DNA from: an uncultured delta proteobacterium
Lineage (GTDB): Bacteria; Desulfobacterota; Syntrophorhabdia; Syntrophorhabdales; WCHB1-27
Direction: 5' to 3'
Assembly: GCA_963810935.1 (NCBI GenBank)
Contig: CAWEPK010000010.1
Location: 297,208 to 361,207 of the forward strand
DNA: 64,000 nt
Notes under the pieces: generated by a model
What the model saw: the letters and a program-made list of their open reading frames with translations, nothing else
What the model was told of the DNA's origin: nothing
The model's database searches: none
Position numbers and translations under genes: made by a program
Shown: positions 7,809-63,459 of the stretch, one piece after another
Position numbering within the stretch: position 1 is the stretch's first letter
Layout: every line of letters begins with the position of its first letter

Positions 7809-8185
7809 AAGTATGTTTTCCGGTCGAGAAGAATGAAGGAATGAACAGCATGGTCTACGGCCATTTCGGCTCGGCCCCGGCGTTCGTCATGGTAGATACG
7901 GACGAGAAAGGCCTGACGGTCGTCGACAACAGGGACGTCAACCACGTGCACGGCGCGTGCAACCCCATCCAGGCAATTGGCGGCCAGGCGGTCGATGCGG
8001 TCGTTGTCGGCGGCATAGGCGCAGGCGCGATAAACGGGCTTAACGCGAAGGGCATCCAGGTTTATCGGGCCTCCGTGGGGACGGTCGGGCAGAACGTTGA
8101 GCTTTTCAAAGCGGGCAAGCTCCCCATGCTTACGCTCCAGCACGCGTGCGGCGGGCACAGCACCGGCGGCTGCGGCCACCACTAA
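7805..8185 (+). CDS. NifB/NifX-family FeMo-cofactor-binding-like protein
   Basis: VYGHFGSAPAF, VVGGIGAGA, C-terminal HACGGH...CGHH; ATGA overlap with DUF134. Confidence 0.9.
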   Translation: MKVCFPVEKNEGMNSMVYGHFGSAPAFVMVDTDEKGLTVVDNRDVNHVHGACNPIQAIGGQAVDAVVVGGIGAGAINGLNAKGIQVYRASVGTVGQNVELFKAGKLPMLTLQHACGGHSTGGCGHH

Positions 8186-8202
8186 GAGAACGAGGGGGGA
8201 CT

Positions 8203-8435
8203 ATGCCGATCTATGAATACGTCTGTAAGAAATGCGGAGAAGTAACGGAGCACCTGGTGCTGGGCAAGGCGAAGACCCTGCCTGCAAGGGATGCGGAAGT
8301 CAAGAGGTCGTAAAGCTCATGTCCGCGGCGAACGTCGGGGCCGCTTCCCCGTCGTTCTCGCCGCCCCAGGCAAGCGGCGGCTGCTGCGGCTCGCCAGGCT
8401 CCTGCGGGAACCCGGGAAGCTGCTGCTCCGGTTAG
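8203..8435 (+). CDS. FmdB-family zinc-ribbon protein, frameshifted near 8268
   Basis: MPIYEYVCKKCG joins (G)EDPACKGCGS..VVKLMS when one G is restored in AAG-G(G)C; Cys-rich tail. Confidence 0.8.
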
Positions 8436-8612
8436 GAAGGGGAACTGTCCCTCGGATAAGGTGCTGTAGTAAAGAGCGGGCGCAGGTAATATCGAACACT
8501 GTAAAAGATATTGCCGGCGCCCGTTTTATATTGCCGGGCAGACCCACTTCAGATCGCCCGGCTGCATCTCTTCCGTCACGCACTATTCTCGGGCCATTGA
8601 CATTAACGTTAT

Positions 8613-8629
8613 GTTAAGCTAAGATTAAC
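8613..8629. promoter_or_regulatory. Candidate enhancer (UAS) GTTAA-N7-TTAAC within a TTAAC-rich tract (8597-8635)
   Basis: GTTAAgctaagaTTAAC lies about 80-100 bp upstream of the sigma54 site; identical arms and spacing recur at 24964-24980. Confidence 0.55.
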
Positions 8630-8708
8630 CTTAACGGGGTGTCCCTGCAAAAAACTCTATTTCCAAGTATTTACACGTTCCATTCGGTCCATTTAGGGGC
8701 CAATATCA

Positions 8709-8724
8709 CGGCATATACCTTGCA
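8709..8724 (+). promoter_or_regulatory. sigma54 (RpoN) -24/-12 promoter of the dsr operon
   Basis: CGGCATATACCTTGCA = GG-N10-GC with TTGCA, matching the TGGCAC-N5-TTGCW consensus; about 120 bp upstream of dsrA. Confidence 0.7.
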
Positions 8725-8844: not shown

Positions 8845-10005
8845 ATGACTGACGACACCCCCCTGCTCGACGACCTCGAGAAGGGACCATGGCCGAGCTT
8901 TGTTAAGGAGATGAAGCGGGCTGCAAAGAAGAACCCCGCGGCAAAAGATCTCCTTAAGATCCAGGAGCGCTCCTATCATGACCGGGTAACCCACTGGAAG
9001 CATGGAGGCATAGTGGGGGTTACAGGCTACGGGGGAGGCGTAATAGGCAGGTACTGCGATGCGCCCGATGACTTCCCATTCGCCGCTGCCTTCCACACCA
9101 TGCGGATCAACCAGCCCGCAGGCTGGTTCTACACAACGGACGCCCTCCGGAAGATCTGCGACATATGGGAGAAGTACGGAAGCGGCATGACCAACTTCCA
9201 CGGCTCCACAGGGGACGTCATCCTCCTGGGCACCACCACGGAGAACCTCCAGCCCTGCTTCGACGAGCTTACCGAAGCAGGCTTCGACCTGGGCGGCTCC
9301 GGCTCCGCGCTTCGCACCCCCGCTGGCTGCATAGGCCAGGCCAGGTGCGAGTATGCCAATATCGACACCTTAGACCTTATCTACGACCTCACCATGACCT
9401 ACCAGGACGAGATACACCGCCCCCGCTGGCCCTATAAGTTCAAGATCAAGGCGTCCGGCTGCCCCAACGACTGCGTTGCCGCCATAGCAAGGGCGGACTT
9501 CACGATCATAGGCGCCTGGCACGACTCTCTCCGTATAGACCAGGAAGGGGTAAGGACCTATGTGAAGGATGGTCTGGACATAGACTCCCTCGTAGTCCGC
9601 AAGTGCCCCACCGAGGCCCTTGACTGGGACGGTACTACCTTAAAGCTCATCCCTGAGGACTGCGTCCGCTGCATGCACTGCATAAACACCATGCCGAAGG
9701 CCCTAAGGCCCGGCATAGTCAAAGGGGCAACCATCCTGATAGGCGGCAAGGCCCCTATCTTAAAAGGCGCCAACCTCTCCTGGGTGCTTGTCCCCTTCAT
9801 GGAGATAAAACCCCCCTATACGGAAGTAAAGGACCTCCTTGCCAAGATATGGGACTGGTGGGACGAGCACGGAAGGACGCGCGAGAGGGTAGCCGAGACC
9901 ATACAGAGGATCGGCCTGAAGGAGTTCCTAAAGGCGGTCGACCTTCCCCCCGTGCCCCAGATGGTCAATAAACCGAGAGCCAATCCCTATGTGTTCTTCA
10001 AATAA
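8845..10005 (+). CDS. dsrA: Dissimilatory sulfite reductase alpha subunit
   Basis: [27 protein letters not shown], siroheme-[4Fe-4S] ligands CIGQARC and CPNDC, ferredoxin CVRCMHC; AGGAGG RBS. Confidence 0.97.
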
Positions 10006-10015
10006 GGAGACAACC

Positions 10016-11081
10016 ATGAGAAAGACCGATATAGGACCCCCCGACTTCAAAACGATGCTCCCCGACGTGATCAAGGACAACTACGGCAAATGGAAGTACC
10101 ACGAGATCGTAAAGCCGGGCGTCCTCCGCCATGTCTCGGAATCAGGCCAAGAGGTCTACTCCATCCGTGCAGGCTCCCCCAGGCTCGTCTCTATAGACTT
10201 CATAAGGGACCTCTGCGATGTGGCCGATAAGCACTGCAACGGCCACCTCCGCTTTACAAGCCGCCACAACATAGAGTTCATGACCCCGGACAAGATCAAA
10301 GGTGGAGCCTATTATCGCAGACCTCACAAAACTGGGCCTCCCCATAGGCGGGACGGGCAAGTGCATCTCGAACATCGTCCACACCCAGGGGTGGATCCAC
10401 TGCCACAGCGCGGCAACCGACGCATCGGGCATAGTAAAAGCAGTCATGGACGCCTTCCACGACCAGTTCACCGAGATGAAGCTACCGAACCACCTTCGGA
10501 TATCCCTTGCCTGCTGCATCAACATGTGCGGTGCGGTCCACTGCTCCGACCTTGCCATAGTGGGCGTACATACGAAGCCCCCCCGGCCCGACCATGAGAG
10601 GGTGCTCGCCCAGTGCGAGATACCTACAACCATACAGTCCTGTCCCACAGGGGCGATCCGAAGGCACCCGGATGCTGACATAAAGAGCGTGGTTGTCCGC
10701 GAGGACCTCTGCATGTACTGCGCCAACTGCTTTACCGTCTGCCCGGCCATGCCGCTTGCCGACGGGGATACGGACGGTGTCGCCATTTACGCAGGGGGCA
10801 AGGTGCCCAATGCCAGAAAGCCCCCGATGTTCTCCCGCATGGTAGTCCCCTACCTGCCCAATAACCCTCCCAGGTGGCCCGAGGTAGTGGACGTCCTCAA
10901 GAGGATAGTCGATGTCTATGCATCATCCGCCAGGCCGACCGAGAGACTGGGCGAGTGGATCGAGAGGATAGGCTGGGAGGCCTTCTTCAAAAGGACCGAG
11001 ATACCCTTCACCGAGCAGCACATAGACGACTTCACCCATGCAGTGGAGACTTACAGGACTACCACGCAGTTTAAGTGGTAG
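10016..11081 (+). CDS. dsrB: Dissimilatory sulfite reductase beta subunit, frameshifted near 10299
   Basis: [55 protein letters not shown]. An extra A in ATC-AAA-GGT splits the gene. Confidence 0.95.
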
Positions 11082-11230
11082 GGGGAATGATGCACTTTCT
11101 TCCTTTTTATGAGGGGGTGGCTCCGGCGGCTTCGCCGCTGGAGGGGGCGACGATAGCCCCGGTAATTGCCGACTTTACCCATGTAGTCGAGACTTATAGG
11201 ACTACCACGCAGTTTAAGTGGTAGGGGGAA
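11027..11230 (+). repeat. Direct repeat of the dsrB 3' end (11027-11087 and 11170-11230; 61 bp, 4 mismatches)
   Basis: cgacttcacccatgcagtggagacttacaggactaccacgcagtttaagtggtagggggaa versus cgactttacccatgtagtcgagacttataggactaccacgcagtttaagtggtagggggaa. Confidence 0.95.
11110..11170. repeat. REP-like double-hairpin element, copy 1
   Basis: 54/61 identical to 18169-18229; stems CTCCGGCGGC-TTC-GCCGCTGGAG and GGGGC-N7-GCCCC. Confidence 0.8.
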
Positions 11231-11249
11231 ATGATCAGGAGGTTTAACA

Positions 11250-11566
11250 ATGCCTAAGACAAATTAGGTGGAAAAGAAATAGAGATCGATGAGGACGGCT
11301 TCATCCAGGAGCCGGAGAAATGGAACAAAGAGGTGGCGGAAGACTTGGCAGTAACCGAGCATGCCTCTCCCATGGGAGAGGAACACTGGAAGCTCGTCAA
11401 CTATCTGAGGGAATACTACCTCAAGTATGAGATCGCCCCTCCCGTCCGTATGCTGGTGAAGCAGACAGGCTTAGACCTCAAGAAAATATATACGCTGTTT
11501 CCCGGCGGACCGGCGAAAGGGGCGTGCAAAATAGCGGGCCTGCCCAAACCGACGGGCTGCGTGTAG
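11250..11566 (+). CDS. dsrC: DsrC sulfur carrier, frameshifted near 11262
   Basis: AGGAGG RBS and ATG at 11250. Restoring one A gives MPKTKLGGKEIEIDEDGFIQEPEKWN. C-terminal GPAKGACKIAGLPKPTGCV keeps both Cys (CX10C). Confidence 0.93.
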
Positions 11567-11579
11567 GGGGCAATACGGC

Positions 11580-12482
11580 GTGAGTATTTTTCTGGCCATA
11601 TTGACCTATTTCGGTTACGTCTTCGTAGTGACCATGTACACGGTCAAGGCCGTGAAGTACGTGAGGCGCCCGCGTCACCTGAGATGGGACCTCTACCCGG
11701 TCATGCACGAGGAGAGGTACCGTTACGGCGGCTCTTATTTCGAGGAGATCAATGGTGCGGCCGGGGCGCGCAAGAAACACCGGCTGCGCAGCATCTTTTT
11801 CCTTTTGAAAGAATATGTGACTATGGGGGAGTACTTCAAGCGGCGAATAAGCTACTGGCTGGCCCTCTACCCCTGGCACATAGGCTTTATCCTGATAATC
11901 GGCTTCCACATCTGCACGTTCTTCGCCGCTGTCGTCATGCTCCTCGGCGTGCCCGTATCGGCAGGATCACCGGTTGCTGCGGGGCGGGTATTTTACTACG
12001 TCGTCCTCTTTACAGGCGTCGTAAGTTTCGTGAGCGGCATCATCGGAAGCATAGGGATGGTAATCAACAGGCTGACTGCCGCCGACCTGAAGGATTACGC
12101 GACCCCTCAGAACTACTTCACCTATATCTTTTGTCTCGCCATTTTCGGGAGCGGGCTCTACGCCTGGTACTTCGACCCGACTCTCTCGGAGTACAGGGAT
12201 TTCTGGGTCGGACTGATCACGTTCAAGCCCATTATGGTCGCTCCCGCGGGAACGCTCCATATAGTCTTATTCGACCTCTTTCTGGTTTATCTCCCTTTTA
12301 CGCGCTCGATGCACTATATCACCCGCATATTCGCCTTCCTCTTCATAAGGTGGGATGACGAGCCCAACCTGCGGGGAAGCCGCCTCGAATCCCAATTGAT
12401 CCGCCAGATGGGACAAGGGGTGAGCTGGGCGGCGCCGCACGTACAGACGGGCGGGACATGGGTGGACCAGGTGAAGTCATGA
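11580..12482 (+). CDS. DsrM/NarI-like membrane b-type cytochrome (first copy)
   Basis: Multiple TM helices, LRWDLYPVMHE, His in YPWHIG..FH and LHIV..SMHY; paired with the downstream Fe-S protein. Confidence 0.8.
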   Translation: MSIFLAILTYFGYVFVVTMYTVKAVKYVRRPRHLRWDLYPVMHEERYRYGGSYFEEINGAAGARKKHRLRSIFFLLKEYVTMGEYFKRRISYWLALYPWHIGFILIIGFHICTFFAAVVMLLGVPVSAGSPVAAGRVFYYVVLFTGVVSFVSGIIGSIGMVINRLTAADLKDYATPQNYFTYIFCLAIFGSGLYAWYFDPTLSEYRDFWVGLITFKPIMVAPAGTLHIVLFDLFLVYLPFTRSMHYITRIFAFLFIRWDDEPNLRGSRLESQLIRQMGQGVSWAAPHVQTGGTWVDQVKS

Positions 12483-12498
12483 AGGTTGGAATAAGTCT

Positions 12499-14097
12499 AT
12501 GAAGAAGAGAATAACTGTCCGGGACATGTCGAGAGCGGACCGGCAGCTTGCCACGCTTGCGCCGTCCGGCTTTATGCCGCTGCCTCCCCCTTACGACGGT
12601 CCAAACGTGATAGGCGAGCTTTCAGACGAGCAGAAGGCTCGGTACGAGGCCTCCCTCGACGGCGTCATAGCTGTAGGGGTGCGGAAACCGCAAAGCCCCG
12701 CCGAAGAAGAGGCGTTCTGCCGCGGCTTCCTCTCGGGCCTCGCGAAGCTCATGACCAAAGAAAACAACTGGACGTTCCTCCAGCCCCTGATGCATTCGCT
12801 GGACTACTGCGTCAAGTGCCAGCTTTGCAGCGACTCATGTCCCGCGTATCTGGGTAGCGGCAAGCAGGAAATATACCGGCCGACCTTCCGGCCGGAGGTC
12901 CTCCGCCGCATCATCAACAAATATCTCAAGGAAGAGGGCGGTCTGCTCCGCAAGCTGACCGCGAGCGACATCGAACTGAACTTCACCCTTCTGGCAAGGC
13001 TTGAAGAGCTTGCCCACAGGTGCACGCTGTGCCGCCGCTGCGCGCAGGTCTGCCCGCTTGGCGTCGATAACGCGCTGATCTCGCGGGAGATCAGGAAGCT
13101 TTTCAGCCAGGAGATGGGCATCGCCGCGAAAGAGCTGCACGAGCAGGGCACCGTGCAGCAGTTGAAGGTGGGTTCGAGCACGGGCATTACGCCCAAGGCG
13201 CTGGCCAACATCATCGACTTCATGGAAGACGACATAGAGGAGAAGACGGGCAAACGCATAAAGATACCCGTAGACAAGGAAGGGGCCGACGCCCTTCTCG
13301 TGCACAACGCGGGGGAGTTTCTCGCCTGGCCGGAAAACCCGGAGGCGTTTGCGATCCTTTTCGACGCGATGGGCATCGACTATACCCTTTCCAGCGATCT
13401 GGTAGGCTACGATGCGGTCAATTACGGCATATGGTATGATGATGTGCAGGCAGCACGGGTGGCGGTGCGCCACGCGGAGGCTGCGAAGCGCCTGAAGGTG
13501 AATAAGATCTACGTCGGTGAATGCGGCCATTCGCACAAGGCGCTCCTCGTGATCGCCGACCGGATACTGACAGGCGACCTCAATATACCGAGGGAAAGCT
13601 TCCTGCCTCTCATGGAGCGGTTCGTCACGAGCGGAAAGGCAAAGTTCGACCCGTCGAGGAACGCTTTTCCCGTGACCCTCCACGACCCGTGCAACATGGT
13701 CCGCCTTATGGGTATCGTCGAGCCGCAGAGGAAGATACTCCGGGCGATTTGCCCGGATTTCAGGGAGATGACGCCCCACGGCGTAGAGAACTACTGCTGC
13801 GGAGGGGGCAGCGGCTTTGCGATCATGCAGTCGATGAACTTCCCAGACTGGCGCAACGCCATATCGGGAAGGATGAAGATGAAGCAGGTCATAGAGGCTT
13901 TTGCTGATAGACCCGATCCGGGCGTCAAAAAGTACGTCTGCGCCCCCTGCTCGAACTGCAAAGGCCTCTTGAGGGACCTGATCACTTATCACGGCGCGTA
14001 TGAAAAGAGCGGCATATTCTACGGGGGCCTGGTAGAGCTTGTTGTCAATGCGATGGCGGACCTGAAGAAGCCGTACATCGATTGGGAATGGCACTAA
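12499..14097 (+). CDS. DsrK/HdrD-like Fe-S oxidoreductase (first copy)
   Basis: Two CxxCxxCxxxCP motifs, GECGH, HDPCN, CCGGGSG and CSNC (CCG domain). Confidence 0.85.
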   Translation: MKKRITVRDMSRADRQLATLAPSGFMPLPPPYDGPNVIGELSDEQKARYEASLDGVIAVGVRKPQSPAEEEAFCRGFLSGLAKLMTKENNWTFLQPLMHSLDYCVKCQLCSDSCPAYLGSGKQEIYRPTFRPEVLRRIINKYLKEEGGLLRKLTASDIELNFTLLARLEELAHRCTLCRRCAQVCPLGVDNALISREIRKLFSQEMGIAAKELHEQGTVQQLKVGSSTGITPKALANIIDFMEDDIEEKTGKRIKIPVDKEGADALLVHNAGEFLAWPENPEAFAILFDAMGIDYTLSSDLVGYDAVNYGIWYDDVQAARVAVRHAEAAKRLKVNKIYVGECGHSHKALLVIADRILTGDLNIPRESFLPLMERFVTSGKAKFDPSRNAFPVTLHDPCNMVRLMGIVEPQRKILRAICPDFREMTPHGVENYCCGGGSGFAIMQSMNFPDWRNAISGRMKMKQVIEAFADRPDPGVKKYVCAPCSNCKGLLRDLITYHGAYEKSGIFYGGLVELVVNAMADLKKPYIDWEWH

Positions 14098-14110
14098 GGG
14101 AGGGAGTGCT

Positions 14111-14446
14111 ATGGCAGAGCAAAAGGTGTTCGTATTGGGCCGGGAAGGGATAAGCGGCGAAGACGAAACACTCGGGTTCGAGATATTAATGGCAATGGTC
14201 CGGAGCCTCTCCAGCCGCGAGGAGCTTCCGGCCGCGATCGTTTTCTGGAATACGGCGGTGCGGCTTCTGACCGACGCGTCGCCCGTGTTGGAGCAGCTCA
14301 AGGCACTGGAGGAGAAAGGCGTCGCCCTGGTCGCCGGCAAGCTTTGTCTCAGCGAACTGGAGATAACGAATCTTGCCGTAGGCAAGGCCGGAACTATGGA
14401 CGACATCCTCGACCTGTTCAATAAGTACGGGGTGGTGAGCTTGTGA
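14111..14446 (+). CDS. DsrE/YedF-like sulfurtransferase-fold protein
   Basis: GEDETLGFEILM, IVFWNTAVRLLT, SPVLEQLKALEEKGV, a single Cys in AGKLC, LAVGKAGTMDDI. Confidence 0.75.
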   Translation: MAEQKVFVLGREGISGEDETLGFEILMAMVRSLSSREELPAAIVFWNTAVRLLTDASPVLEQLKALEEKGVALVAGKLCLSELEITNLAVGKAGTMDDILDLFNKYGVVSL

Positions 14447-14477
14447 TAAGAGGATTTACAGGGGCTTCCGGGGAGCG

Positions 14478-15458
14478 ATGACCCTCCCCCTTCTCTCGGT
14501 CCTCGGCCTTGCGGCCCTCGGCTGGGCGGGCGCGCAGCTCCCCGGCCTTACCGCTGTCGCAGTCCCTTATGCGGCCCTTCTGCTTTTCGCAGCAGGCTTC
14601 GTCTACCGTCTCGCTGCCTGGGGGACCTCCCCCGTGCCTTTTCATATCCCCACAGTCTGCGGCCAGCAGCGGTCCCTGCCCTGGATAAAGTCATCAACGA
14701 TCGACAGCCCTTCCACCCGGACGGGCGTCTTCTTTCGTATGGCCCTCGAAGTCCTGTTGTTCCGTTCCCTATGGCAGAATGACAGGATGGAGATGAAAAG
14801 GCACGAGAAGCTGATCTACGGCTCCAACCGCTACCTCTGGCTCTTCGGCCTCATGTTTCATTGGTCGCTCCTTATAATTCTCTTCCGCCACATGCACTTT
14901 TTCATGGAATTCCCCGGCATCAGTCGGGTCGAGTCGATAGACGGCTTTTTCCGCATCGGCCTGCCTGCCCTCTATATGAGCAACGTCTTCATCGCTGCGG
15001 CACTTATCTTCCTTTTCGCAAGACGCCTTACCCCCAGACTCCGCATGATATCCCTGCCGCAGGATTACTTCTCCCTTTTCCTTCTCATGGCAGTAATCGC
15101 TTCCGGCACGCTCATGCGCTATTGTTTCAGGGCCGACGTCGAGCGCGTCAAGGAAGTGGTGACGGCCCTCGTCTCCCTAAAGCCGATAGCCCCGGCCGGG
15201 ATAGGCGCGTTCTTCTATATCCATCTTTTCCTGGTATCAATTCTCTTCGCCTGGTTTCCATTCAGCAAGCTTATGCACGCACCGGGCGTTTTTTTGAGCC
15301 CCACCCGGAACCTGAAGAATGACAGCCGCGCGAGAAGGCACGTCAACCCGTGGAACTACCCCGTAAAGGTGCACACTTACGCGGAGTATGAGGAAGAGTT
15401 CGGCAAGGCTATGGAGGAAGCAGGCCTGCCCGTGGATAAGGGGGGCACGCATGGCTGA
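14478..15458 (+). CDS. dsrM: DsrM membrane cytochrome b
   Basis: SPVPFHIPTVCGQQRSLPWI, LEVLLFRSL, FHWSLLIILFRH, FPFSKLMHAPGVFLSPTRN. Confidence 0.93.
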   Translation: MTLPLLSVLGLAALGWAGAQLPGLTAVAVPYAALLLFAAGFVYRLAAWGTSPVPFHIPTVCGQQRSLPWIKSSTIDSPSTRTGVFFRMALEVLLFRSLWQNDRMEMKRHEKLIYGSNRYLWLFGLMFHWSLLIILFRHMHFFMEFPGISRVESIDGFFRIGLPALYMSNVFIAAALIFLFARRLTPRLRMISLPQDYFSLFLLMAVIASGTLMRYCFRADVERVKEVVTALVSLKPIAPAGIGAFFYIHLFLVSILFAWFPFSKLMHAPGVFLSPTRNLKNDSRARRHVNPWNYPVKVHTYAEYEEEFGKAMEEAGLPVDKGGTHG

Positions 15459-17030
15459 GCCGAAACAGGAAGAGATGCTTCAAGGCATCGACTACAAGGC
15501 ATCCGGCTGGATGGCCCCATCCGCCCCTTTCCGCAAAGGGACATACTCCTACGGCGCGCCGGTCAAGCACCAGAAGTACCTGGAGCTGCCCAACATAAGG
15601 GAGTGGCAGCCGACGGATGCGGACTGGAAGCTCCCGGAAAACTGGAAAGAGATCGTCCTCTCCGGCATGAAGAAGCTCCTTGCCCGCCACCGCTCGTTCA
15701 GGCTTTACCTGGACATCTGCGTCCGCTGCGGCGCCTGCGCGGACAAGTGCCATTACTACATCGGCTCCGGCGACCCTAAGAACATGCCCGTCATCCGCGC
15801 GGAGCTTTTACGCTCCGTTTACCGCCGCTACTTCACGACCGGGGGCCGCCTTTTCGGCCGCCTGGCAGGCGGGCGAGAGCTTACCGAGGACGTGATCAAG
15901 GAATGGTTCTACTATTTCTACCAGTGCTCGGAGTGCCGCCGCTGCTCCGTCTTCTGTCCCTACGGCATCGATACCTGCGAGATCACGATGATGGGCAGGG
16001 AGTGCTCAACCTGGTGGGCATCAACATCCAGTGGGTGGTGGAGCCTGCCTCCAACTGTTTCAGGACGGGCAACCACTTAGGGATTCCTCCCCATGCAATG
16101 AAGGAGACCCTCGAATTTGCCGTAGACGAGCTGGAAGGCATAACAGGCATCAAGGTGGACCTCCCCATAAATAAAAAGGGCGCGGAAATCCTTTTTGTAG
16201 CCCCTTCGGCGGACTTCTTCGCAAGCCCCCACTGGTATACGCTTTTGGGCTACCTGGCCCTCTTCCATGAGATAGGCCTCGACTACACGTGGAGCACCTA
16301 TGCGTCCGAAGGGGGCAACTTCGGCCTCTTCCATTCTTCCGAGCTTGAAAAGCGCCTCAACGCAAAGATTTACGCGGAGGCTAAAAGATTGGGAGTCAAG
16401 TGGATACTCGGCGGAGAATGCGGACACATGTGGCGCGTCATCCACCAGTACATGGATACCATGAACGGCCCGGCCGACTTCCTTGAAGAACCGGTATCTC
16501 CCATAACCGGTACGAGGTTCGCGAACGCCCGCTCCACGAAGATGGTCCACATATCGGAGTTTTCCGCAGACCTCATAAAGAACGGCAAGATCACCCTCAA
16601 CCCGTCCCGGAACGACAAGTACAGCATCACGTACCACGATTCGTGCAACCCGGCCCGCGCGATGGGGCTTTTTGAGGAGCCCCGCTTTATCCTGAATAAC
16701 GTCGCAAACTACTTCTACGAGATGCCGGAGAACACAATAAGGGAAAAAACTTTCTGCTGCGGCGGCGGTGCGGGTCTTGGGGCCGACGAGAACATGGAAA
16801 TGAGGCTCAGGGGAGGACTCCCGAGGGCAAACGCGGTCAAATACGTACATGAGCGCCACGGCGTAAACATGCTCGCCTGCATGTGCGCCATCGATAAAGC
16901 TTCGCTCCCTCCCCTCATGGAATACTGGGTGCCGGGGGTCGAGGTATGCGGCGTCCATGAACTGCTCGGGAATGCCCTCGTGATGAAGGGGGAGACGCGG
17001 ACGACCGATTTGCGGGGCGAGCCGCTATGA
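15451..17030 (+). CDS. dsrK: DsrK Fe-S subunit, frameshifted near 16002
   Basis: CVRCGACADKCHY, DPKNMPV, CSECRRCSVFCPYGID, GECGHMWR, YHDSCN, CCGGGAG; one G is missing in GAG-(G)TG-CTC. Confidence 0.93.
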
Positions 17031-17404
17031 GACCGGCCGCCGTCATCATCGCCATCTTTTTGGTTCTCCTCGCCCTGCCCTTCGTCTATAATACGATAAG
17101 CAGGGGAGCGCCCCCTGTCCTCGTCCCGCCGCCCGGGGGCGAGAAACAGTGCGTCGAGCCGGTGGAGTACATGCGCAAGCACCACGTCGAGATTCTGAAA
17201 GATTGGCGGGATGAGCGCGTGCGCGACGGGAAGGTTGCATACGTCTCCTCGACAGGTAGGTCCTATACGATAAGCCTCACCGGGACGTGCCTTGGCTGCC
17301 ATTCCAACAAGGCGGAATTCTGCGACCGCTGCCACAACTACCTGCGGGTAGAGCCTAACTGCTTCGACTGCCATGTCGTGCCGAAGGCAAAGGGGGCCGG
17401 ATGA
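17027..17404 (+). CDS. dsrJ: DsrJ triheme cytochrome c
   Basis: N-terminal anchor, [17 protein letters not shown], three CxxCH (CLGCH, CDRCH, CFDCH). Confidence 0.93.
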
Positions 17405-18105
17405 ATAGAAGAGACTTCCTCCGCACCCTCGCAATTATGGGTTTTGCCATCGTCGCTCCCGCCGATATACTCAAGGCTGCGCAGCCGGGCAGACGATGGG
17501 CGATGACGATCGACCTGTCCGCGTGCTCCGACGGGTGCACTGATTGCATCTCGGCCTGCCACACGATCCACAATGTACCCGATATCGCCGACCCCAAACG
17601 GAAGATACGGTGGATATGGACGTCGCCGTTCGAGGACCTTTTCCCGGAGGCCCCGGCCTATAAAATGCGCGGTCCCGTCCTCGCACTCTGCAATCACTGT
17701 GAGGAGCCGCCCTGCGTGCCCGTCTGCCCGGTCAAGGCCACATTCAAGAGGGCAGACGGCATAGTCATGATGGATTACCACAGGTGCATAGGCTGCCGGT
17801 ACTGTGTTGCCGCCTGCCCTTACGGGGCGCGCAGCTTCAACTGGGAGGACCCGAGGCCGTATATCCGCAAGGTCGATCCCGGATACCCCACCCGGACAAG
17901 GGGTGTGGTGGAAAAGTGCAATTTCTGTGAAGAACGGCTGGTAAAGGGGCTTATGCCCGCCTGCGTGGAAGCGTGCAGTAAGGGGCTTGCCTTCGGCGAC
18001 CTGAACGACAGCGGGTCTGCCGTAAGACGCCTTCTTTCATCGAGGCACGCGATGCGGCGGAAGGCCTACCTGGGCACGAAACCAGACGTGTTTTACCTGA
18101 TATGA
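17401..18105 (+). CDS. dsrO: DsrO periplasmic Fe-S protein
   Basis: Tat signal [45 protein letters not shown]. Confidence 0.92.
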
Positions 18106-18118
18106 GGGCAATAAATGA

Positions 18119-18279
18119 CCCTGCTGCTTGCAGCAGGGTATCCAGGACAACGAGCTAAGGCGAGTCTTTGAGGGGGAGGCTCCACCGGCTTTGCCGGTGG
18201 AGGGGGCGACGCTAGCCCCAGTAATTGCCACGGAGCGAAGCGAAAAGAGGTCTCCCTGCAGCAAGCTGCAGGGAATCCA
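18119..18279. repeat. Composite intergenic palindrome array containing REP-like copy 2 (18169-18229)
   Basis: CCCTGCTGC-TT-GCAGCAGGG-TATCCA (18119) and CCCTGCAGC-AA-GCTGCAGGG-AATCCA (18254) flank the 61-bp element. Confidence 0.8.
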
Positions 18280-18300
18280 CCAGTTGAGGAGCGGCAGGCG

Positions 18301-19453
18301 ATGATTGAAAAAGGGCTGAAAGGCGGCGGCGCTTATTGGGTGTGGCTCTCCTTTCTTTGCCGCACTCACAGTTGCGGGCTTCATCGCCTGGCTTCAGCAG
18401 TGGGCATACGGCCTCGCCGTCACCGGCATGGGCCGGACGGTCTCCTGGGGGCTTTATATAGCCAACTTTACCTTCTTCGTCGGCGTAGCGGCATCTGCGG
18501 TGACCGTCGTCCTCCCTTACTACCTCCACAACGTAAAAGAGTTCAGGCGCATAGTCATCCTGGGCGAGTTCCTGGCCGTCTCGTCGGTCGTCATGTCGCT
18601 CCTTTTCATTATCGCGGACCTAGGCCGTCCGGACCGCGCATTCAATATGATCGTCCACCCGACGCCCACGTCCCTGCTCTTTTGGGACATGATCGTCCTC
18701 AATGGATACCTCATCCTGAACCTCGTGATCGGCTGGTCCACCCTGGACGCGGAAGCCAAAGGAGAGAAGCCGCTGGCATGGGTCCGCTTTTTTATCATTT
18801 TGTCGATCCCGTGGGCGGTCAGCATCCATACGGTGACTGCCTTTATTTACCAGGGGCTCGTTGCCCGCCCGCTCTGGCACAGCGCTTTGTGGGCGCCGCG
18901 ATTCCTCGCCTCGGCCTTCGCCTCCGGCCCTTCCCTGCTTATCCTTCTGGCCCTCTTCCTCAAAAAAGTGAGCCGCTTCGACGCAGGGTCGGATGCAATC
19001 CGCAAGGCGACGACGATAGCCACGTATGCACTCCTCGTCAATATATTCCTGCTGCTGGTCGAGCTGTTTACGACGATTTACGCTGCCGTGCCCGAGGACA
19101 CGGAATCGCTGAAGTACCTTTTCTTCGGCATCGACGGGCACAATGCCCTCGTCCCCTGGATGTGGGCTTCGATGGCGCTCATGGGCCTATCTGCATGCGC
19201 CCTTCTCTTCGAGAGGCTGCGGAACAACGAGGCTGTTCTCGTCTTTATCTGCCTCGCCATATTTATAGGCGTCTGGATCGATAAGGGCCTGGGGCTGGTA
19301 GTGCCGGGCTTCATCCCCTCCCCCCTGGGAGAAATCATCGAATACGGCCCCACGTTCCCTGAATGCCTCATCACGGCAGGGGTGTGGGCATTAGGAGCGC
19401 TGATCGTGACGGTGATGTACCGTGTAGTCGTGAGCGTCAGAGAAAGTGCTTAG
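18301..19453 (+). CDS. dsrP: DsrP (NrfD-family) membrane subunit, frameshifted near 18357
   Basis: MIEKGLKGG..YWVWL joins GLAVTGMGRTVSWGLYIANFTFFVGVAASAV, WAVSIHTVTAF, APRFLASAF if one extra T is removed. Confidence 0.92.
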
Positions 19454-19489
19454 TTTTCTTTTTGCTTTTAGAACAGGGAGGTAGTGGTT

Positions 19490-20290
19490 ATGAACATTTC
19501 GAGAAGGGACCTTTTGGGAAGCATGGGAGGGCTCGTCCTGGGCCTCGGCCTGGGAGGGCTAGGCACGGGCATCACAAACGGCATAGCAGCCGAGGCGCAG
19601 CCGCAGGCCGCCGAGCTGCCGTGGCCCTATAAGAAGCTCGACCCCGACTCTGCTGCGGAGAGGGCCTACGAGGGATACTACAAGGGCGCCTGCTGCTTCG
19701 GCGGCTTCGACGGCATCGTGGGTGAGCTGCGCAAGGAGGTGGGCGCGCCGTACACGACCTTTCCTTCGTCCTTGATGGCCTTCGGCGAAGGCGGCGTGGC
19801 CGGCATGTCAACCCTCTGCGGGGCGCTGAACGGGGCGGCCATGGCCATATTCCTGACCGCGGGCGGCATGGACAAGGAGAAGAAGGACAGGGCCTTCAAG
19901 CTCATAAGAGAGCTGTACACGTGGTACGAGCAGGAGCCCCTGCCCGACTACAAGCCGAAGAACCCGAAGTTCCAGATCGTCGCTTCAGTCTCCCGCTCGC
20001 CTCTGTGTCACGTCTCGGTCACGAACTGGTGCAAGGTGTCGAAGTTCAAGTCCTTCTCTAAGGAGCGCGCGGAGCGTTGCGCCTGGATATCGGCTTCCGT
20101 CGCCCACCGTGCGGTCCTGCTGCTCAATGATAACCTGGCAGGCTCGTTCAAGACCGCCCACGGCTTGACCGCCCAGACGCAGACTTGCCGTAGCTGCCAT
20201 GACCAGGGAGGAATGCTGGAAAACTCGCGGGGAATGATGGATTGCGGAGGATGCCACTTTACTCCCAAAACGAAGCATCCTAAGATATAG
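19490..20290 (+). CDS. Split-Soret cytochrome c-like / C-GCAxxG-C-C family protein with Tat signal
   Basis: SRRDLL Tat motif, LPWPYKKLDP, GACCFG, TLCGALNG, SPLCHVSVTNWC, ERC, plus C-terminal CRSCH and CGGCH. Confidence 0.8.
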   Translation: MNISRRDLLGSMGGLVLGLGLGGLGTGITNGIAAEAQPQAAELPWPYKKLDPDSAAERAYEGYYKGACCFGGFDGIVGELRKEVGAPYTTFPSSLMAFGEGGVAGMSTLCGALNGAAMAIFLTAGGMDKEKKDRAFKLIRELYTWYEQEPLPDYKPKNPKFQIVASVSRSPLCHVSVTNWCKVSKFKSFSKERAERCAWISASVAHRAVLLLNDNLAGSFKTAHGLTAQTQTCRSCHDQGGMLENSRGMMDCGGCHFTPKTKHPKI

Positions 20291-20352
20291 TAACCCTTTG
20301 AAGCGGGGCGAGTCGTCAGGCACGCCCCAATCCTGTTCGTAGGAGAGGTGTT

Positions 20353-21765
20353 ATGGCGGATAATAAGAAACCCGTAGCGCAGCAGGGAGCAAAGCCAGGC
20401 GCCGGCGAGGCGCAGCCTCCTTCCATGGGATGGAAGGAGCTTTACTTAAAGGAAGACTGGTGGGCGATCTACCTTGGGCTCGGCATTGTGGTGGTTGCGC
20501 TCATCGCTTTCCTGAGCGGCAGTACTGTCGTTAAGGCGCTGTCCGTCAACCCGGGCGGTCTGAAATGGTCGTCCCTCGACCAGCTCGGAACCCATTTCAG
20601 CAATAACATCCAACTTTACGTCCTGCAATTGATCTGCTGGCTCATCATCCTTGGAATACCGGCGAGAATAATGGGCATAAAGGGGTCCAGCTTTGTCCCG
20701 TCCTTCATAATCCTCTATATACTCTCGGTCATCATGTTCGCCATCGGCGGATGGGTGGACGCTGGCAAATACAACATGGAGCCGCCCCTCCTCGCGCTGA
20801 TTCTCGGCCTTCTGATAGCCAATATTGTACCCCTTCCACAGTGGATCAATGCGGGCTTCCGGGTCGAGTATTACGTGAAGACAGGCATCGTCCTTTTGGG
20901 AGCGACGTTCCCTCTCACGCTCGTCTTCTCCGCCGGGCCGGTGGCCCTCTTTCAGGCGACGGTCATTTCTCTTATCACCTGCCTGGTGATATACTTCGCC
21001 GCCACTAAGCTGCTGGGCCTTGATAAAAAACTTGGCGCGCTCCTCGGCGTCGGCGGCGCGGTCTGCGGTGTCTCCGCATCCATCGCAATCGCGGCGTCGG
21101 TAAGGGCAAAGAAGGAACACCTATACATGACGGTGACCCTCGTCGTTATCTGGGCGCTCGTCATGGTTTTCTTCATCCCCTTTATGTCCAAGGTCTTCAA
21201 CCTTAACGCCGGACAGGCGGGCGCATGGGTGGGGACCTCGGAGTTCGCCGACGCGGCAGGCTTCGCGGCAGCATCCGCTTATGGCCGGATGTCGGGCAAT
21301 GAGAACGCAGCCCTCCAGGCGTTTACCCTTATGAAAGTTATCGGCAGGGACATCTGGATAGGTATCTGGTCCTTTATCTTCGCCCTGATAGCCTGCCTCA
21401 AGTGGGAGAAAGAAGAATGCGGCGTAAGGCCGAGCGCAATGGAGATATGGTGGAGGTTCCCCAAGTTTGTCATCGGTTTCTTCGTTGCCTCCTTAATAAT
21501 GACGGCGGTGACTGCCGGGTACGCGGCACCCGTGTTCAATAAGGTCGTCAAACCTGGGTTGATCGGACCTATCGCGTCACTGAGAGGCTGGACCTTCATA
21601 TTCTGCTTTATGAGCATAGGACTGACGACCAGGTTCAGGGAGCTGAAGGGAGCCGGTGTGAAGCCCTTCGGTGCGTTCACCCTAGGCGTGATCATCAACG
21701 TGGTGCTAGGCTTCCTTCTCTCGGTATACGTTTTCGGCGATTATTGGACGAAGCTCGTTAAGTGA
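20353..21765 (+). CDS. YeiH / putative sulfate exporter (PSE) family membrane protein
   Basis: KEDWWAI, EYYVKTGIVLLGA, GGAVCGVSASIA, AGAWVGTSE, MKVIGRDIWIG, FPKFVIGF. Confidence 0.85.
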   Translation: MADNKKPVAQQGAKPGAGEAQPPSMGWKELYLKEDWWAIYLGLGIVVVALIAFLSGSTVVKALSVNPGGLKWSSLDQLGTHFSNNIQLYVLQLICWLIILGIPARIMGIKGSSFVPSFIILYILSVIMFAIGGWVDAGKYNMEPPLLALILGLLIANIVPLPQWINAGFRVEYYVKTGIVLLGATFPLTLVFSAGPVALFQATVISLITCLVIYFAATKLLGLDKKLGALLGVGGAVCGVSASIAIAASVRAKKEHLYMTVTLVVIWALVMVFFIPFMSKVFNLNAGQAGAWVGTSEFADAAGFAAASAYGRMSGNENAALQAFTLMKVIGRDIWIGIWSFIFALIACLKWEKEECGVRPSAMEIWWRFPKFVIGFFVASLIMTAVTAGYAAPVFNKVVKPGLIGPIASLRGWTFIFCFMSIGLTTRFRELKGAGVKPFGAFTLGVIINVVLGFLLSVYVFGDYWTKLVK

Positions 21766-22022
21766 GAACTATAAGGCAGCGGATTGATAATCCGACACCG
21801 GCCGGCGAGAAGTGCGACCCGGCCGGCCGGTGCGCGGGCTGCGCGCACTTCGAGGCGGACCCGGCCATGGTTGAGTCCGCGTTGCCGGGGATGACGGTTC
21901 TCGCATCGGCCTACTCGTCGGTAAGCGCCGGTGTGGGGCTGTGTATGCTCCACGACCTCGTTGTCTCCCCGTGGAAGGGGTGCGGGGACTTCGAGGAGCG
22001 GGGCGGCGGCAGTCCGGCATAG
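21762..22022 (+). CDS. Small Cys-rich hypothetical protein
   Basis: GTGA overlap with the exporter stop; CAGCAHF...GLCMLHD...GCGDF. Confidence 0.65.
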   Translation: MRTIRQRIDNPTPAGEKCDPAGRCAGCAHFEADPAMVESALPGMTVLASAYSSVSAGVGLCMLHDLVVSPWKGCGDFEERGGGSPA

Positions 22023-22047
22023 CGTACAACGTGGAAGGAGGGGTCTC

Positions 22048-23094
22048 GTGGAAGACGAGATAAGCAGGAGAGATTTTCTCAAGACGACCGTCGGCGCTGG
22101 GGCGGTATTGATGGCAGGAGGTGTCATGGGAGGGGCAAAGACGGCTTACGGCGCAGTAAAAATGGCGGAGCTCGACAAGCTGAACATCACGATCATAACC
22201 GACAACTATTACGACGCCCTCAGGCCCGACGCGCCAATAACGAAGAGGTTCCGCACGCAGCCCGGCAAGTGGATGCACGCAGAGCACGGCCTCTCGTATT
22301 TTATCGAGACGGCGGGCGGCGGCAAGACCGGCGTTTTCATGTTCGACTACGGCCTCGATGCGCAGGGCGTGAAAAGGAACATGGACGTGCTCGGCCTCGA
22401 TGCAGGCAGGGCGGAAGGCTTCGGCCTGTCGCACGGCCATTTCGACCACTGGGGCGGCTTCACTCAGATGCTCGCCTTGAATAAAGACAGGATAAAGAAG
22501 GGGGCGCCGCTCTACCTGGGCGAGGGCGCGTTCGACCAAAGATATTCGTTGGTGCCGGGCACCAGCCAGAGACTCGATATCGGCCGCTTGAGCAAGGCCG
22601 ACATAGAGGCAACGGGCCTGGTTCGGGTCGTTGAGGTCAAAGCCCCCACGGAGGTTATGCCGGGCGGTTATTTTTCGGGCCACGTCGAGCAGGTGACCGA
22701 GTACGAGAAAGTGCCGCCTGTCCTTCTTGTCGAGCAGAACGGCGCAATCGGCGTCGATTCCTTCCCCGGCGAGCAGGCAATGGCGTTCAACGTCAAAGGA
22801 AAGGGCCTGGTAATCGTTTCGAGCTGCGCCCACAGGGGCATCGTGAATACGGTGAAGCACATCCGGAAGATGTCGGGGGTCGAGAAGGTCCACGCGGTAG
22901 TCGGCGGCTTCCACCTGGTAAACGCTAAGCCGGAAGTCATAGAAAGGACCGTAGCCGACATGAAGGCTATAAACCCGGCGTATCTCGTCCCGGCCCATTG
23001 CACGGGCTTCGAGGCGACGATTGCCTTTGCGAAGGCCATGCCCGACAGCTTCATACTCAACACGGCGGGCACGAAATATACGTTTTCGGCATAA
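22048..23094 (+). CDS. Tat-exported metallo-beta-lactamase-fold hydrolase
   Basis: GTG start with GGAGG RBS, SRRDFLK Tat motif, AEHGLS, SHGHFDHWGG, SCAHRG, GGFHL, PAHCTG. Confidence 0.85.
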   Translation: MEDEISRRDFLKTTVGAGAVLMAGGVMGGAKTAYGAVKMAELDKLNITIITDNYYDALRPDAPITKRFRTQPGKWMHAEHGLSYFIETAGGGKTGVFMFDYGLDAQGVKRNMDVLGLDAGRAEGFGLSHGHFDHWGGFTQMLALNKDRIKKGAPLYLGEGAFDQRYSLVPGTSQRLDIGRLSKADIEATGLVRVVEVKAPTEVMPGGYFSGHVEQVTEYEKVPPVLLVEQNGAIGVDSFPGEQAMAFNVKGKGLVIVSSCAHRGIVNTVKHIRKMSGVEKVHAVVGGFHLVNAKPEVIERTVADMKAINPAYLVPAHCTGFEATIAFAKAMPDSFILNTAGTKYTFSA

Positions 23095-24961: not shown

Positions 24962-24982
24962 ACGTTAATTCGTTATTAACGT
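24962..24982. promoter_or_regulatory. Palindromic site ACGTTAAT-N5-ATTAACGT upstream of the sigma54 activator
   Basis: Perfect 8-bp arms; contains GTTAA-N7-TTAAC as at 8613-8629. Confidence 0.6.
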
Positions 24983-25024
24983 AAGTTATTAACACCAGTT
25001 CAGCGTTAACAAAACGGAGGGGCG

Positions 25025-63458: not shown

Positions 63459-63459
63459 G

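What the first reader, a model, noticed from the sequence alone, without database searches (positions are those of the whole stretch)
8845..23094. Unusual self-contained dsr super-operon: dsrABC + MK-like + DsrE-like + MKJOP + periplasmic/export module
Seen: 15 co-oriented, mostly tightly spaced genes combining the catalytic core, two membrane electron-transfer modules, a sulfurtransferase-fold protein, two extra Tat-exported proteins and a putative sulfate exporter. dsrD, dsrT, dsrN, dsrL, dsrEFH, sat, aprAB and qmo are not in the window. Established: canonical sulfate reducers have dsrABD and a single MKJOP; oxidisers have dsrABEFHCMKLJOP. This order matches neither. Inference: an inducible pathway for an externally supplied sulfur compound (sulfite, thiosulfate/polythionate or organosulfur), possibly with sulfate excretion as in disproportionation. 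This is the best candidate for an undescribed system here.
Basis: partly seen in the sequence, partly recalled or inferred. Interest (0 to 1): 0.85.

Follow-up and report, generated by a model that had tools for sequence, protein, structure and literature searches.

The report
Sigma-54-switched sulfite respiration operon
These 15 genes are a rearranged version of the sulfite-reduction cluster that many related bacteria carry; here it sits behind a conserved sigma-54-type promoter that a nearby cysteine-rich regulator likely switches on, so the cell probably respires sulfite, not sulfate, and only under the right redox conditions.

Summary
The 15 genes are real, but the operon is neither self-contained nor a new pathway. 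dsrAB-D-N-C-MK stood together in 18 of 18 loci examined from other genera of the order (probably Syntrophorhabdales), 13 with MKJOP behind. MK plus MKJOP is in print (PMC10504309), and so are sat-less Syntrophorhabdales (PMC10591310, Table S1). This genus has scattered the cluster. dsrT follows a second, 98.75% identical dsrAB. dsrD-N-C lie at a third place that the assembly misses. Copies within a genome are homogenised; the scan noted this before on other DNA (e1-9815209). sat and aprA are not found here, and 36 of 43 dsrA genomes of the order lack aprA, so sulfite-level respiration is likely; two congeners do have sat-apr-qmo. New here: a conserved sigma-54 promoter with a TTAAC block precedes the operon, and the same block precedes a five-cysteine PAS activator 1.9 kb downstream. 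This suggests OrpR-like redox control; the scan saw a similar link in an acidobacterium. The tail (split-Soret cytochrome, YeiH, small partner) is optional: 3 of 96 genomes. Disproportionation is unsupported. Four genes carry frameshifts, probably read errors.

The parts
8602..8636 (+). TTAAC/GTTAA repeat block, predicted binding site (UAS) of the PAS sigma-54 activator
   Evidence: Conserved in G000, G012, G013; the same block precedes the activator gene in 8 of 8 loci holding its orthologue. Binding not tested.
8709..8724 (+). Sigma-54-type -24/-12 promoter (GG 8710-8711, GC 8722-8723)
   Evidence: Present before dsrA in G000, G012 and G013 at this flank; absent before the other 3 dsrA copies of the genus; 1 hit in 18 other loci; background 0.018 per 400 bp.
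8845..10005 (+). dsrA, bacterial reductive type
   Evidence: TIGR02064 561 bits, cut-off 393; best PDB hit A. fulgidus 3MM5; siroheme cysteine motif present.
10016..11081 (+). dsrB, one extra base near 10296
   Evidence: TIGR02066 in two pieces; the C8 copy is in frame at this site.
11022..11230 (+). 66-nt repeat of the dsrB 3' end (11022-11087, 11165-11230) around a hairpin repeat element
   Evidence: 91% identical; element has about 40 matches in the genome.
11250..11566 (+). dsrC with both C-terminal cysteines; one base missing near 11266
   Evidence: PF04358, TIGR03342; tail CKIAGLPKPTGCV.
11580..12482 (+). dsrM1, cytochrome b of the minimal DsrMK module, four haem histidines kept
   Evidence: PF02665; H100, H110, H227, H245 align with the DsrM histidines.
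12499..14097 (+). dsrK1, minimal-type DsrK; GECGH motif and CCG motif ending in cysteine
   Evidence: NF045796 344 bits, under cut-off 400; groups with Bacillota/Actinomycetota MK-only proteins, apart from MKJOP-type K.
14111..14446 (+). DsrE-fold protein like the YedF C-terminal domain, one invariant cysteine (C79); not DsrE of dsrEFH
   Evidence: PF02635 and TIGR03527 under cut-off; alignment of 7; TIGR03012 0 of 22 genomes.
14478..19453 (+). dsrMKJOP (M 14478-15458, K 15451-17030, J 17027-17404, O 17401-18105, P 18301-19453); frameshifts in K near 16003 and P near 18361; hairpin repeat between O and P
   Evidence: NF038037, NF045796, NF038038, NF045797, NF045798 over cut-off; K has GECGH and the Asp-type CCG motif; J has three CxxCH.
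19490..20290 (+). Tat-exported split-Soret cytochrome c-like dihaem protein
   Evidence: PDB 1H21, E 1e-40; NF047622 220 bits, under cut-off 400; two CxxCH.
20353..21765 (+). YeiH/PSE-family membrane transporter, candidate sulfite carrier
   Evidence: PF03601; TIGR00698 under cut-off; about 11 hydrophobic stretches.
21762..22022 (+). Small four-cysteine protein that travels with this YeiH clade
   Evidence: Found behind YeiH in 65 of 80 metagenome loci; CxxC...C...C conserved in 15 of 15 aligned rows; no Pfam family.
22048..23094 (+). Tat-exported metallo-beta-lactamase-fold hydrolase (Tm1679-like)
   Evidence: PF10518; PDB 2P4Z, 3H3E; widespread, no dsr-specific link seen.
24964..25012 (+). 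Second TTAAC block directly before the activator gene (predicted autoregulation site)
25025..26395 (+). PAS-AAA+-HTH sigma-54 activator, five conserved cysteines in the PAS domain; in-frame TGA near 25427
   Evidence: PF13426, PF00158, PF02954; follows the operon in G013 and L134; C52, C57, C60, C73, C86 in 7 of 7 aligned orthologues; L134 is open at the stop.

Best explanation
The 15 genes encode the terminal, reductive Dsr machinery, which likely lets this bacterium respire sulfite without activating sulfate, and the operon is predicted to be switched on from its sigma-54 promoter by the cysteine-PAS activator downstream, probably at low redox potential. Steps: DsrAB reduces sulfite onto DsrC as a trisulfide (known chemistry; motifs shown here). 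Two quinol-linked reductases regenerate DsrC and release sulfide: a minimal DsrMK with a Cys-type cluster and a full DsrMKJOP with an Asp-type cluster (known for A. fulgidus DsrMKJOP; inferred for K1). The helpers DsrD, DsrN and DsrT come from other places in the genome (dsrT shown; dsrD-N shown in congeners and in read contigs). A second, homogenised dsrAB copy adds dosage (copy shown, purpose inferred). YeiH with its small partner likely moves sulfite across the membrane, direction unknown; the split-Soret protein is likely a periplasmic electron carrier; both are optional add-ons (inferred).
For: Family hits and catalytic motifs. No dsrEFH; the only DsrL-shaped protein seen lies in what reads as a 2-oxoacid oxidoreductase operon. 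sat and aprA not found in G000, 93.5% complete. In the order, 36 of 43 dsrA genomes lack aprA and 35 lack sat; among good genomes 27 of 30 lack both. The five Syntrophorhabdales rows in PMC10591310 Table S1 show dsrABCD, MKJO(P), T and no sat/apr/qmo. Promoter and block conserved across three congeners whose dsrAB differ by 5-14%. The block precedes the activator in 8 of 8 loci, and with a sigma-54 motif precedes dsrC'-MK in G015 and MK in G011. An RpoN box is present. OrpR shows that a cysteine-PAS activator can sense redox (PMC8359166, passages). YeiH gives sulfite resistance in Salmonella (10.1101/2025.07.27.662810, passages) and follows dsrB in 6 Coriobacteriia loci.
Against: Two of three congeners (G011, G013) have sat-apr-qmo, and the G000 assembly misses at least one 155-kb stretch, so sat/apr could be missing by accident. 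No sure source of sulfite was found: no glycyl-radical lyase, no Xsc over cut-off, no YeeE, and PhsA-like enzymes score 170-308 against a cut-off of 694. The activator has an in-frame stop and four operon genes have frameshifts; none was checked against reads. In G003 and G006 the activator's divergent promoter drives metV-metF-like genes, not dsr, so it is not a dedicated sulfur regulator. Its cysteine spacing differs from OrpR's C52/C61/C65. The motif was defined from these same sites, so its shuffle control (8 against 0-1) is lenient, and 2 of the 8 hits are unrelated. No expression data.
Confidence: 0.6

Rival explanations
1. The organism is a complete sulfate reducer. Its sat-aprBA-qmoABC-dsrABD locus is missing from the assembly, and this operon is the terminal module of ordinary sulfate respiration.
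For: G013 has exactly this locus beside the same operon; G011 has sat, apr and qmo. None of the 154.6-kb G012 contig that holds dsrD-N-C, lptD and other core genes matches G000 at over 85%, while other G012 stretches match at 90-95%.
Against: The nearest genome G012 (66% complete) also shows no sat or aprA, and sat-less is the rule in the order (27 of 30 good dsrA genomes). No part of the G013 locus other than dsrAB matches G000.
Confidence: 0.2
2. The operon serves sulfite detoxification or sulfur supply in a mainly syntrophic organism: DsrAB, YeiH and the MK modules remove sulfite or make sulfide, with little energy gain.
For: YeiH is a sulfite-stress gene elsewhere. No clear sulfite-yielding pathway was found. 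Syntrophorhabdus is described as a syntroph (PMC5946492, passages).
Against: A full DsrMKJOP, a second DsrMK and a duplicated dsrAB are a large outlay for detoxification; DsrMKJOP is a quinol:DsrC-trisulfide reductase (PMC10861901, passages).
Confidence: 0.1
3. One reading: disproportionation of thiosulfate, sulfite or sulfur, with sulfate leaving through YeiH.
For: Reductive DsrAB/C/D sets occur in disproportionators, and Desulfurella is reported to disproportionate sulfur without sat/apr (PMC8794893, passages). A Tat-type PhsA-like molybdoenzyme lies on C1.
Against: No sat or apr found to make sulfate; no YeeE. The 'sulfate exporter' label is doubted in favour of sulfite (PMC11582611, passages). 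The tail follows dsrP in only 3 of 96 genomes.
Confidence: 0.06
4. The operon is decaying: the frameshifts in dsrB, C, K, P and the stop in the activator are real.
For: Five breaks in about 17 kb.
Against: Single-base indels are common across the assembly: 146 in 48.5 kb against G012 (either side), and 4 of 14 unrelated ORFs are split. The C8 dsrB is in frame. G013 shows breaks at other places.
Confidence: 0.04

Closest known systems
Basal DsrMK plus DsrMKJOP in Deltaproteobacteria, and DsrABDNCTMKJOP clusters (Neukirchen et al. 2023, PMC10504309; section 7 read whole, other passages, supplement rows)
   Same: Bacterial reductive DsrAB, a minimal DsrMK related to clostridial ones and a separate DsrMKJOP in one genome.
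   Different: Here both modules stand in one operon, with a DsrE-like gene between them; D, N and T have moved away; dsrAB is duplicated; a tail and a sigma-54 promoter are added.
sat-less Syntrophorhabdales in Diao et al. 2023 (PMC10591310; passages and 5 rows of Table S1)
   Same: dsrABCD, dsrT, MKJO(P) without sat, apr, qmo, dsrEFH or dsrL.
   Different: The table gives presence only; I saw no gene order, copy number or regulation there, and none of the five rows has sat/apr, which 8 of 96 genomes show here.
A. fulgidus DsrMKJOP (AF0502) and DsrMK-type K proteins (Barbosa et al. 2024, PMC10861901; passages)
   Same: GECGH motif in both K proteins; Asp-type CCG motif in the MKJOP K, Cys-type in the MK-only K.
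   Different: Activity of the minimal module is not shown here or, in the passages seen, there.
OrpR (DVU2106) of Desulfovibrio vulgaris (PMC8359166; passages)
   Same: PAS-AAA+-HTH sigma-54 activator with conserved PAS cysteines, first at position 52; sites next to its own gene.
   Different: Cysteines at 52/57/60/73/86, not 52/61/65. OrpR controls only the orp operons; D. vulgaris dsrAB is constitutive (PMC8794893, passage).
YeiH/SuyZ, PSE family TC 2.A.98 (PMC11582611; 10.1101/2025.07.27.662810; passages)
   Same: PF03601 membrane protein tied to sulfur metabolism.
   Different: Scores far under the TIGR00698 cut-off, has a small cysteine partner gene, and sits in a sulfite-consuming operon, so import is as possible as export.
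Split-Soret cytochrome c of D. desulfuricans ATCC 27774 (PDB 1H21; PMC5701242, PMC4215793; passages)
   Same: Tat signal, C-GCAxxG-C-C domain, two C-terminal CxxCH.
   Different: Not dsr-linked in the passages seen; mutants of D. alaskensis homologues had no fitness defect.

Membership tests
Bacterial reductive Dsr pathway | DsrAB with siroheme-[4Fe-4S] motif, reductive type | tested here: met
   60-71% identical to DsrA of Bacillota loci such as Desulfosporosinus. No DsrAB tree with oxidative references was built.
Bacterial reductive Dsr pathway | DsrC with two C-terminal cysteines | tested here: met
   gene has a one-base gap near its start.
Bacterial reductive Dsr pathway | dsrD present | tested here: inconclusive
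   Not in the assembly; present in G011, G012, G013; contigs of runs that hold the window cover the G012 dsrD at 96-97.5%. The lineage's DsrD escapes Pfam PF08679; its profile finds PDB 1UCR at E 0.0095, rank 6.
Bacterial reductive Dsr pathway | No dsrEFH, no dsrL | tested here: met
   TIGR03012 0 of 22 genomes. dsrL was checked only indirectly: 10 GltD-like ORFs, the one with a C-terminal ferredoxin lies in what reads as a 2-oxoacid oxidoreductase operon.
Canonical dissimilatory sulfate reduction | sat, aprBA, qmoABC | tested here: not met
   Not found in G000; assembly 93.5% complete with a known gap, so absence is not proven.
DsrMKJOP | Five genes in order; dihaem DsrM, trihaem DsrJ, GECGH and CCG motif in DsrK | tested here: met
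DsrMKJOP | Quinol:DsrC-trisulfide reductase activity | not testable with these tools
   Shown for A. fulgidus only.
Minimal (basal) DsrMK | MK without JOP; K groups apart from MKJOP-type K | tested here: met
   Two clades, SH-aLRT 100, quick tree of 56 rows from 37 picked loci plus the window; no archaeal rows included.
OrpR family | PAS-AAA+-HTH architecture | tested here: met
OrpR family | PAS cysteines C52, C61, C65 | tested here: not met
   C52, C57, C60, C73, C86 against the positions given in PMC8359166; OrpR itself was not aligned.
OrpR family | [4Fe-4S] cluster and redox response | not testable with these tools
   Needs protein and spectroscopy.
YeiH/PSE transporters | PF03601 membrane protein | tested here: met
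   141 bits, cut-off 24.5; TIGR00698 73 bits, cut-off 233.
Sulfur disproportionation through reversed Apr/Sat | Route from sulfite to sulfate | tested here: not met
   other sulfite oxidases were not searched.

The most novel reading that the evidence does not exclude
A lineage of supposed syntrophs has put its whole sulfite-respiring chain, with two different DsrC reductases and a sulfite gate (YeiH plus a new four-cysteine partner), under a new iron-sulfur redox-sensing sigma-54 activator. It switches between syntrophy and sulfite respiration by redox state, and stands for an order in which most dsrAB carriers cannot activate sulfate.
Probability: 0.4. Interest if true: 0.72.

Novelty: new variant of a known kind. 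Interest (0 to 1): 0.5.

Why it matters
dsrAB surveys count these bacteria as sulfate reducers with one gene copy. Here 36 of 43 dsrA genomes of the order lack aprA, and this genus has two or three near-identical copies, which can also drop out of fragmented assemblies (G011 has sat and apr but no assembled dsrA). The operon offers direct tests of three open points: why a cell keeps both DsrMK and DsrMKJOP, how sulfite crosses the membrane in sulfite respirers, and whether dsr genes can be redox-regulated through sigma-54, where D. vulgaris expresses dsrAB constitutively.

Tried and rejected
1. Pfam PF08679 as a test for dsrD: it misses this lineage's DsrD, so relatives' DsrD were used as queries. 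2. Misassembly as the cause of two dsrAB copies: rejected, because G013 has three copies with matching flanks and the G000 copies differ at 28 sites. G012 joins this operon's upstream flank to dsrT; recombination or misjoin cannot be told apart. 3. Reads for sat/apr (G013 locus at 80% likeness, 4 runs of one study, contigs only). dsrAB was tiled by contigs bearing G000 letters (29 of 29 listed sites match the C8 copy). Their depth was about 10-11.5, against about 4-8 for the dsrD-N-C pieces. The loose ends shown at the dsrB end were the hairpin spacer and dsrT; qmoC and its neighbours had next to no cover, and apr and sat only scattered short pieces. Depth is no copy number, the tables were cut and the reference is about 14-20% distant, so this is not counted as evidence. 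4. No RNA holder listed. 5. A sigma-70 promoter at 8597-8625 (10 sites found against 6.8 expected) and a LysR reading of the TTAAC block: set aside once the sigma-54 motif and the activator link appeared, but not excluded. 6. The first sigma-54 pattern was one base short and found nothing; corrected. 7. Sigma-54 motifs before YeiH elsewhere: 4 of 56 against 7 of 56 inside the gene, no signal. 8. Sulfite sources: glycyl-radical enzymes 0, Xsc under cut-off, YeeE 0; 6 of the 12 molybdopterin-family loci were scanned, none over a PhsA, TtrA or DmsA cut-off. 9. No solved DsrK structure by sequence. 10. The small ORF has no named family. 11. Literature searches gave no paper on this gene order, on homogenised dsrAB copies, or on sigma-54 control of dsrAB. 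Passages of PMC5946492, PMC13106459 and 10.64898/2026.08.10.744021 held nothing on dsr in this order. No fold or complex prediction was run.
Full report
1. Observation. The 15 genes between 8845 and 23094 are as described: dsrA, dsrB, dsrC, a DsrM-like and a DsrK-like gene (M1, K1), a DsrE-fold gene, dsrMKJOP, a Tat-exported split-Soret cytochrome c-like protein (PDB 1H21), a YeiH transporter, an 86-codon ORF and a Tat-exported MBL-fold hydrolase. Gaps are short except two that hold a genome-wide hairpin repeat. dsrB, dsrC, dsrK and dsrP each have a one-base indel. Such indels are common in this assembly (146 in 48.5 kb against G012, either side; 4 of 14 unrelated ORFs split), and the second dsrB copy is in frame, so read errors are likely. 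They were not checked against reads.

2. Where it comes from. The nearest named relative is titled a Syntrophorhabdales bacterium (L010, K1 81% identical), so I take the order to be Syntrophorhabdales (inference). dsrA was found in 43 of 96 genomes of the order. I looked at 18 dsrAB loci from 18 of the 40 dsrA genomes outside this genus. All 18 read dsrA-B-D-N-(YHS)-C-M1-K1. 13 of 18 continue to MKJOP in the same cluster, and 6 of 18 have the DsrE-like gene after K1. The MK-plus-MKJOP design is therefore the usual one in the order. It is also in print: Neukirchen et al. describe deltaproteobacterial lineages with a basal DsrMK and an additional DsrMKJOP (PMC10504309, section 7 read whole). A quick tree splits K1 and K2 into two clades, K1 with MK-only proteins of Bacillota and Actinomycetota. 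Both keep GECGH; K1 ends its CCG motif in cysteine, K2 in aspartate, as in the A. fulgidus paralogues (PMC10861901, passages).

3. The operon is not self-contained. G000 has a second dsrAB on contig C8, followed by an IS200-like transposase gene (label from my reading of the sequence) and dsrT. The congener G013 has three copies: one heading this same operon, one before dsrT, one behind sat-apr-qmo and before dsrD. Copies within a genome are 98.75% (G000) and 99.8-99.9% (G013) identical, while copies at the same place in the two genomes are 86.4-86.7% identical, and the tree groups them by genome. That is the pattern of gene conversion. I found it before opening the scan's notes; the scan had recorded it on other DNA of this genome (e1-9815209). 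A further locus, dsrD-dsrN-dsrC without dsrAB, exists in G011, G012 and G013. G000 lacks it, but no part of the 154.6-kb G012 contig that bears it matches G000, although it holds lptD and other core genes and other G012 stretches match at 90-95%. In four soil runs of one study that hold 49-77% of the window's words, contigs about 94-97.5% like G012 cover dsrD, dsrN and dsrC; these runs may include the source and are not independent. So dsrD and dsrN are most likely lost to an assembly gap.

4. Sulfate or sulfite. sat, aprA and qmoC are not found in G000. Across the order sat is in 9 and aprA in 8 of 96 genomes; 36 of the 43 dsrA genomes lack aprA, and 27 of 30 good-quality ones lack both. Kin are not independent, so these are counts, not a test. 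Diao et al. list five Syntrophorhabdales, all without sat, apr and qmo (PMC10591310, Table S1 rows). Against this, two of three congeners have sat-apr-qmo and the assembly has gaps, so I leave 0.2 for a full sulfate reducer. dsrEFH is absent from 22 of 22 family genomes. I found no sure sulfite source; a Tat-type PhsA-like molybdoenzyme on C1 is the best candidate and scores far under the cut-off.

5. Regulation, the new part. Aligning the upstream DNA of G000, G012 and G013 shows two conserved islands: a TTAAC/GTTAA block at 8602-8636 and CGGCATATACCTTGCA at 8709-8724, a sigma-54 -24/-12 motif. The motif is absent before the other three dsrA copies of the genus and occurs before 1 of 18 other dsrA genes; background is 0.018 per 400 bp. 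A PAS-AAA+-HTH activator lies at 25025-26395 and follows the operon in G013 and L134 too. Its PAS domain has five cysteines in 7 of 7 aligned orthologues. The TTAAC block stands directly before the activator gene in 8 of 8 loci that hold it. In G015 and G011 the block lies between the activator and a divergent sigma-54 promoter for dsrC'-M1K1 or M1K1; in G003 and G006 the divergent promoter drives metV-metF-like genes. Block plus promoter occurred 8 times in 3.2 Mb of loci against 0-1 in ten shuffles; the pattern was drawn from these sites and 2 of the 8 are unrelated. The core of the block has 6 matches in G000, two of them these sites. An RpoN box is present. The model is OrpR, whose PAS cysteines hold a redox-sensing [4Fe-4S] cluster (PMC8359166, passages), but the spacing differs, so this works like OrpR at best. 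In the window the activator has an in-frame TGA where L134 is open. The scan noted an OrpR-like gene beside dsrAB in an acidobacterium (e1-4976855; not checked by me).

6. The tail. This YeiH clade is in 6 and the cytochrome in 13 of 96 genomes; both follow dsrP only in G000, G013 and G009, and in the metagenome locus L134. Among the best 80 of 154 metagenome relatives of YeiH, 65 have the small ORF behind it and 1 shows dsr genes; many loci are short. YeiH homologues of 44-53% identity lie in 8 of the 80 K1 loci, and follow dsrB directly in 6 Coriobacteriia loci. YeiH gives sulfite resistance in Salmonella (10.1101/2025.07.27.662810, passages) and is read as a sulfite exporter in Hyphomicrobium (PMC11582611, passages). 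So YeiH and its partner are a mobile pair, recruited to dsr clusters more than once, and likely a sulfite carrier. The MBL follows in G013 and L134 and is otherwise widespread.

7. Mechanism. Shown: genes, motifs, copies, conserved promoter elements. Known from other organisms: DsrAB/DsrC chemistry, DsrMKJOP activity, DsrD as a non-essential activator with constitutive dsrAB in D. vulgaris (PMC8794893, passages). Inferred: sulfite as the acceptor, activity of M1K1, activator binding and redox sensing, transport by YeiH, one transcript.

8. Verdict. A new variant of a known system. The core order and the sat-less state are published; the scattered, homogenised copies were already noted by the scan. 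The sigma-54 circuit on this operon and the YeiH partner gene I did not find in ten literature searches. Interest 0.5, down from 0.85.

Noticed in passing
G002, G003, G004, G006, G011, G013, G015, G070 (for example L087, L090, L228): Eight genomes of an order known for syntrophy carry sat and aprA, seven with dsrAB on the same contig: candidate full sulfate reducers. None of the five rows in PMC10591310 Table S1 shows this.
   Followed up: partly
L095:391-1566 (G018); gaps of like size in L096, L098, L103: A type III sulfide:quinone reductase-like gene stands between dsrK1 and dsrT in this sat-less genus, and an AprA-like flavoprotein of about 570 aa follows dsrP.
   Followed up: partly
window 11097-11170 and 18110-18290; G000 C8 661630-662400; L089:14500-14860: A hairpin repeat with about 40 matches in the genome; behind dsrB it comes with a doubled gene end, twice over in G013, and an IS200-like element sits in it on C8. 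Noted before by the scan (e1-8504521).
   Followed up: partly
L085:14400-18470 (G012): In G012 the DUF134-NifB flank of this operon runs through dsrAB into dsrT, which suggests recombination between dsrAB copies, or a misjoin.
   Followed up: no
L017, L051, L101 (dsrM1): These DsrM1 proteins lack the second haem histidine that the window's M1 keeps; M1 types of about 30% and 70% identity alternate within the family, G013 included.
   Followed up: no
L236, L239, L247 (G079, G007, G080): dsrC with K1 (and M1 in two of the three) in genomes where no dsrA was found.
   Followed up: no
L226:200-3586 (G000 C3): A molybdopterin oxidoreductase fused to a NifS-type cysteine desulfurase, 1129 aa.
   Followed up: no
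L221:1318-4819 (G000 C1): Tat-exported PhsA-like molybdoenzyme, iron-sulfur subunit and TorD chaperone with no membrane anchor gene seen; a possible source of sulfite.
   Followed up: partly
L241:8433-10090, L245:5560-7304: The same activator faces a sigma-54 promoter for metV-metF-like genes in G003 and G006.
   Followed up: partly
L122:19020-20000, L111:1-8087 (G012): Nitrogenase component and NifB-like genes near dsrD-N-C, in the stretch that G000 lacks.
   Followed up: no
L124:3616-9898 (G013): Cytochrome c oxidase subunit I and a cytochrome b/c gene upstream of the dsrAB-dsrT copy.
   Followed up: no
window 7506-8437 and 63430-63998: DUF134, NifB/NifX-like and a frameshifted small cysteine-rich gene precede the promoter; the window's last 569 nt are identical to the start of contig C5.
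   Followed up: no
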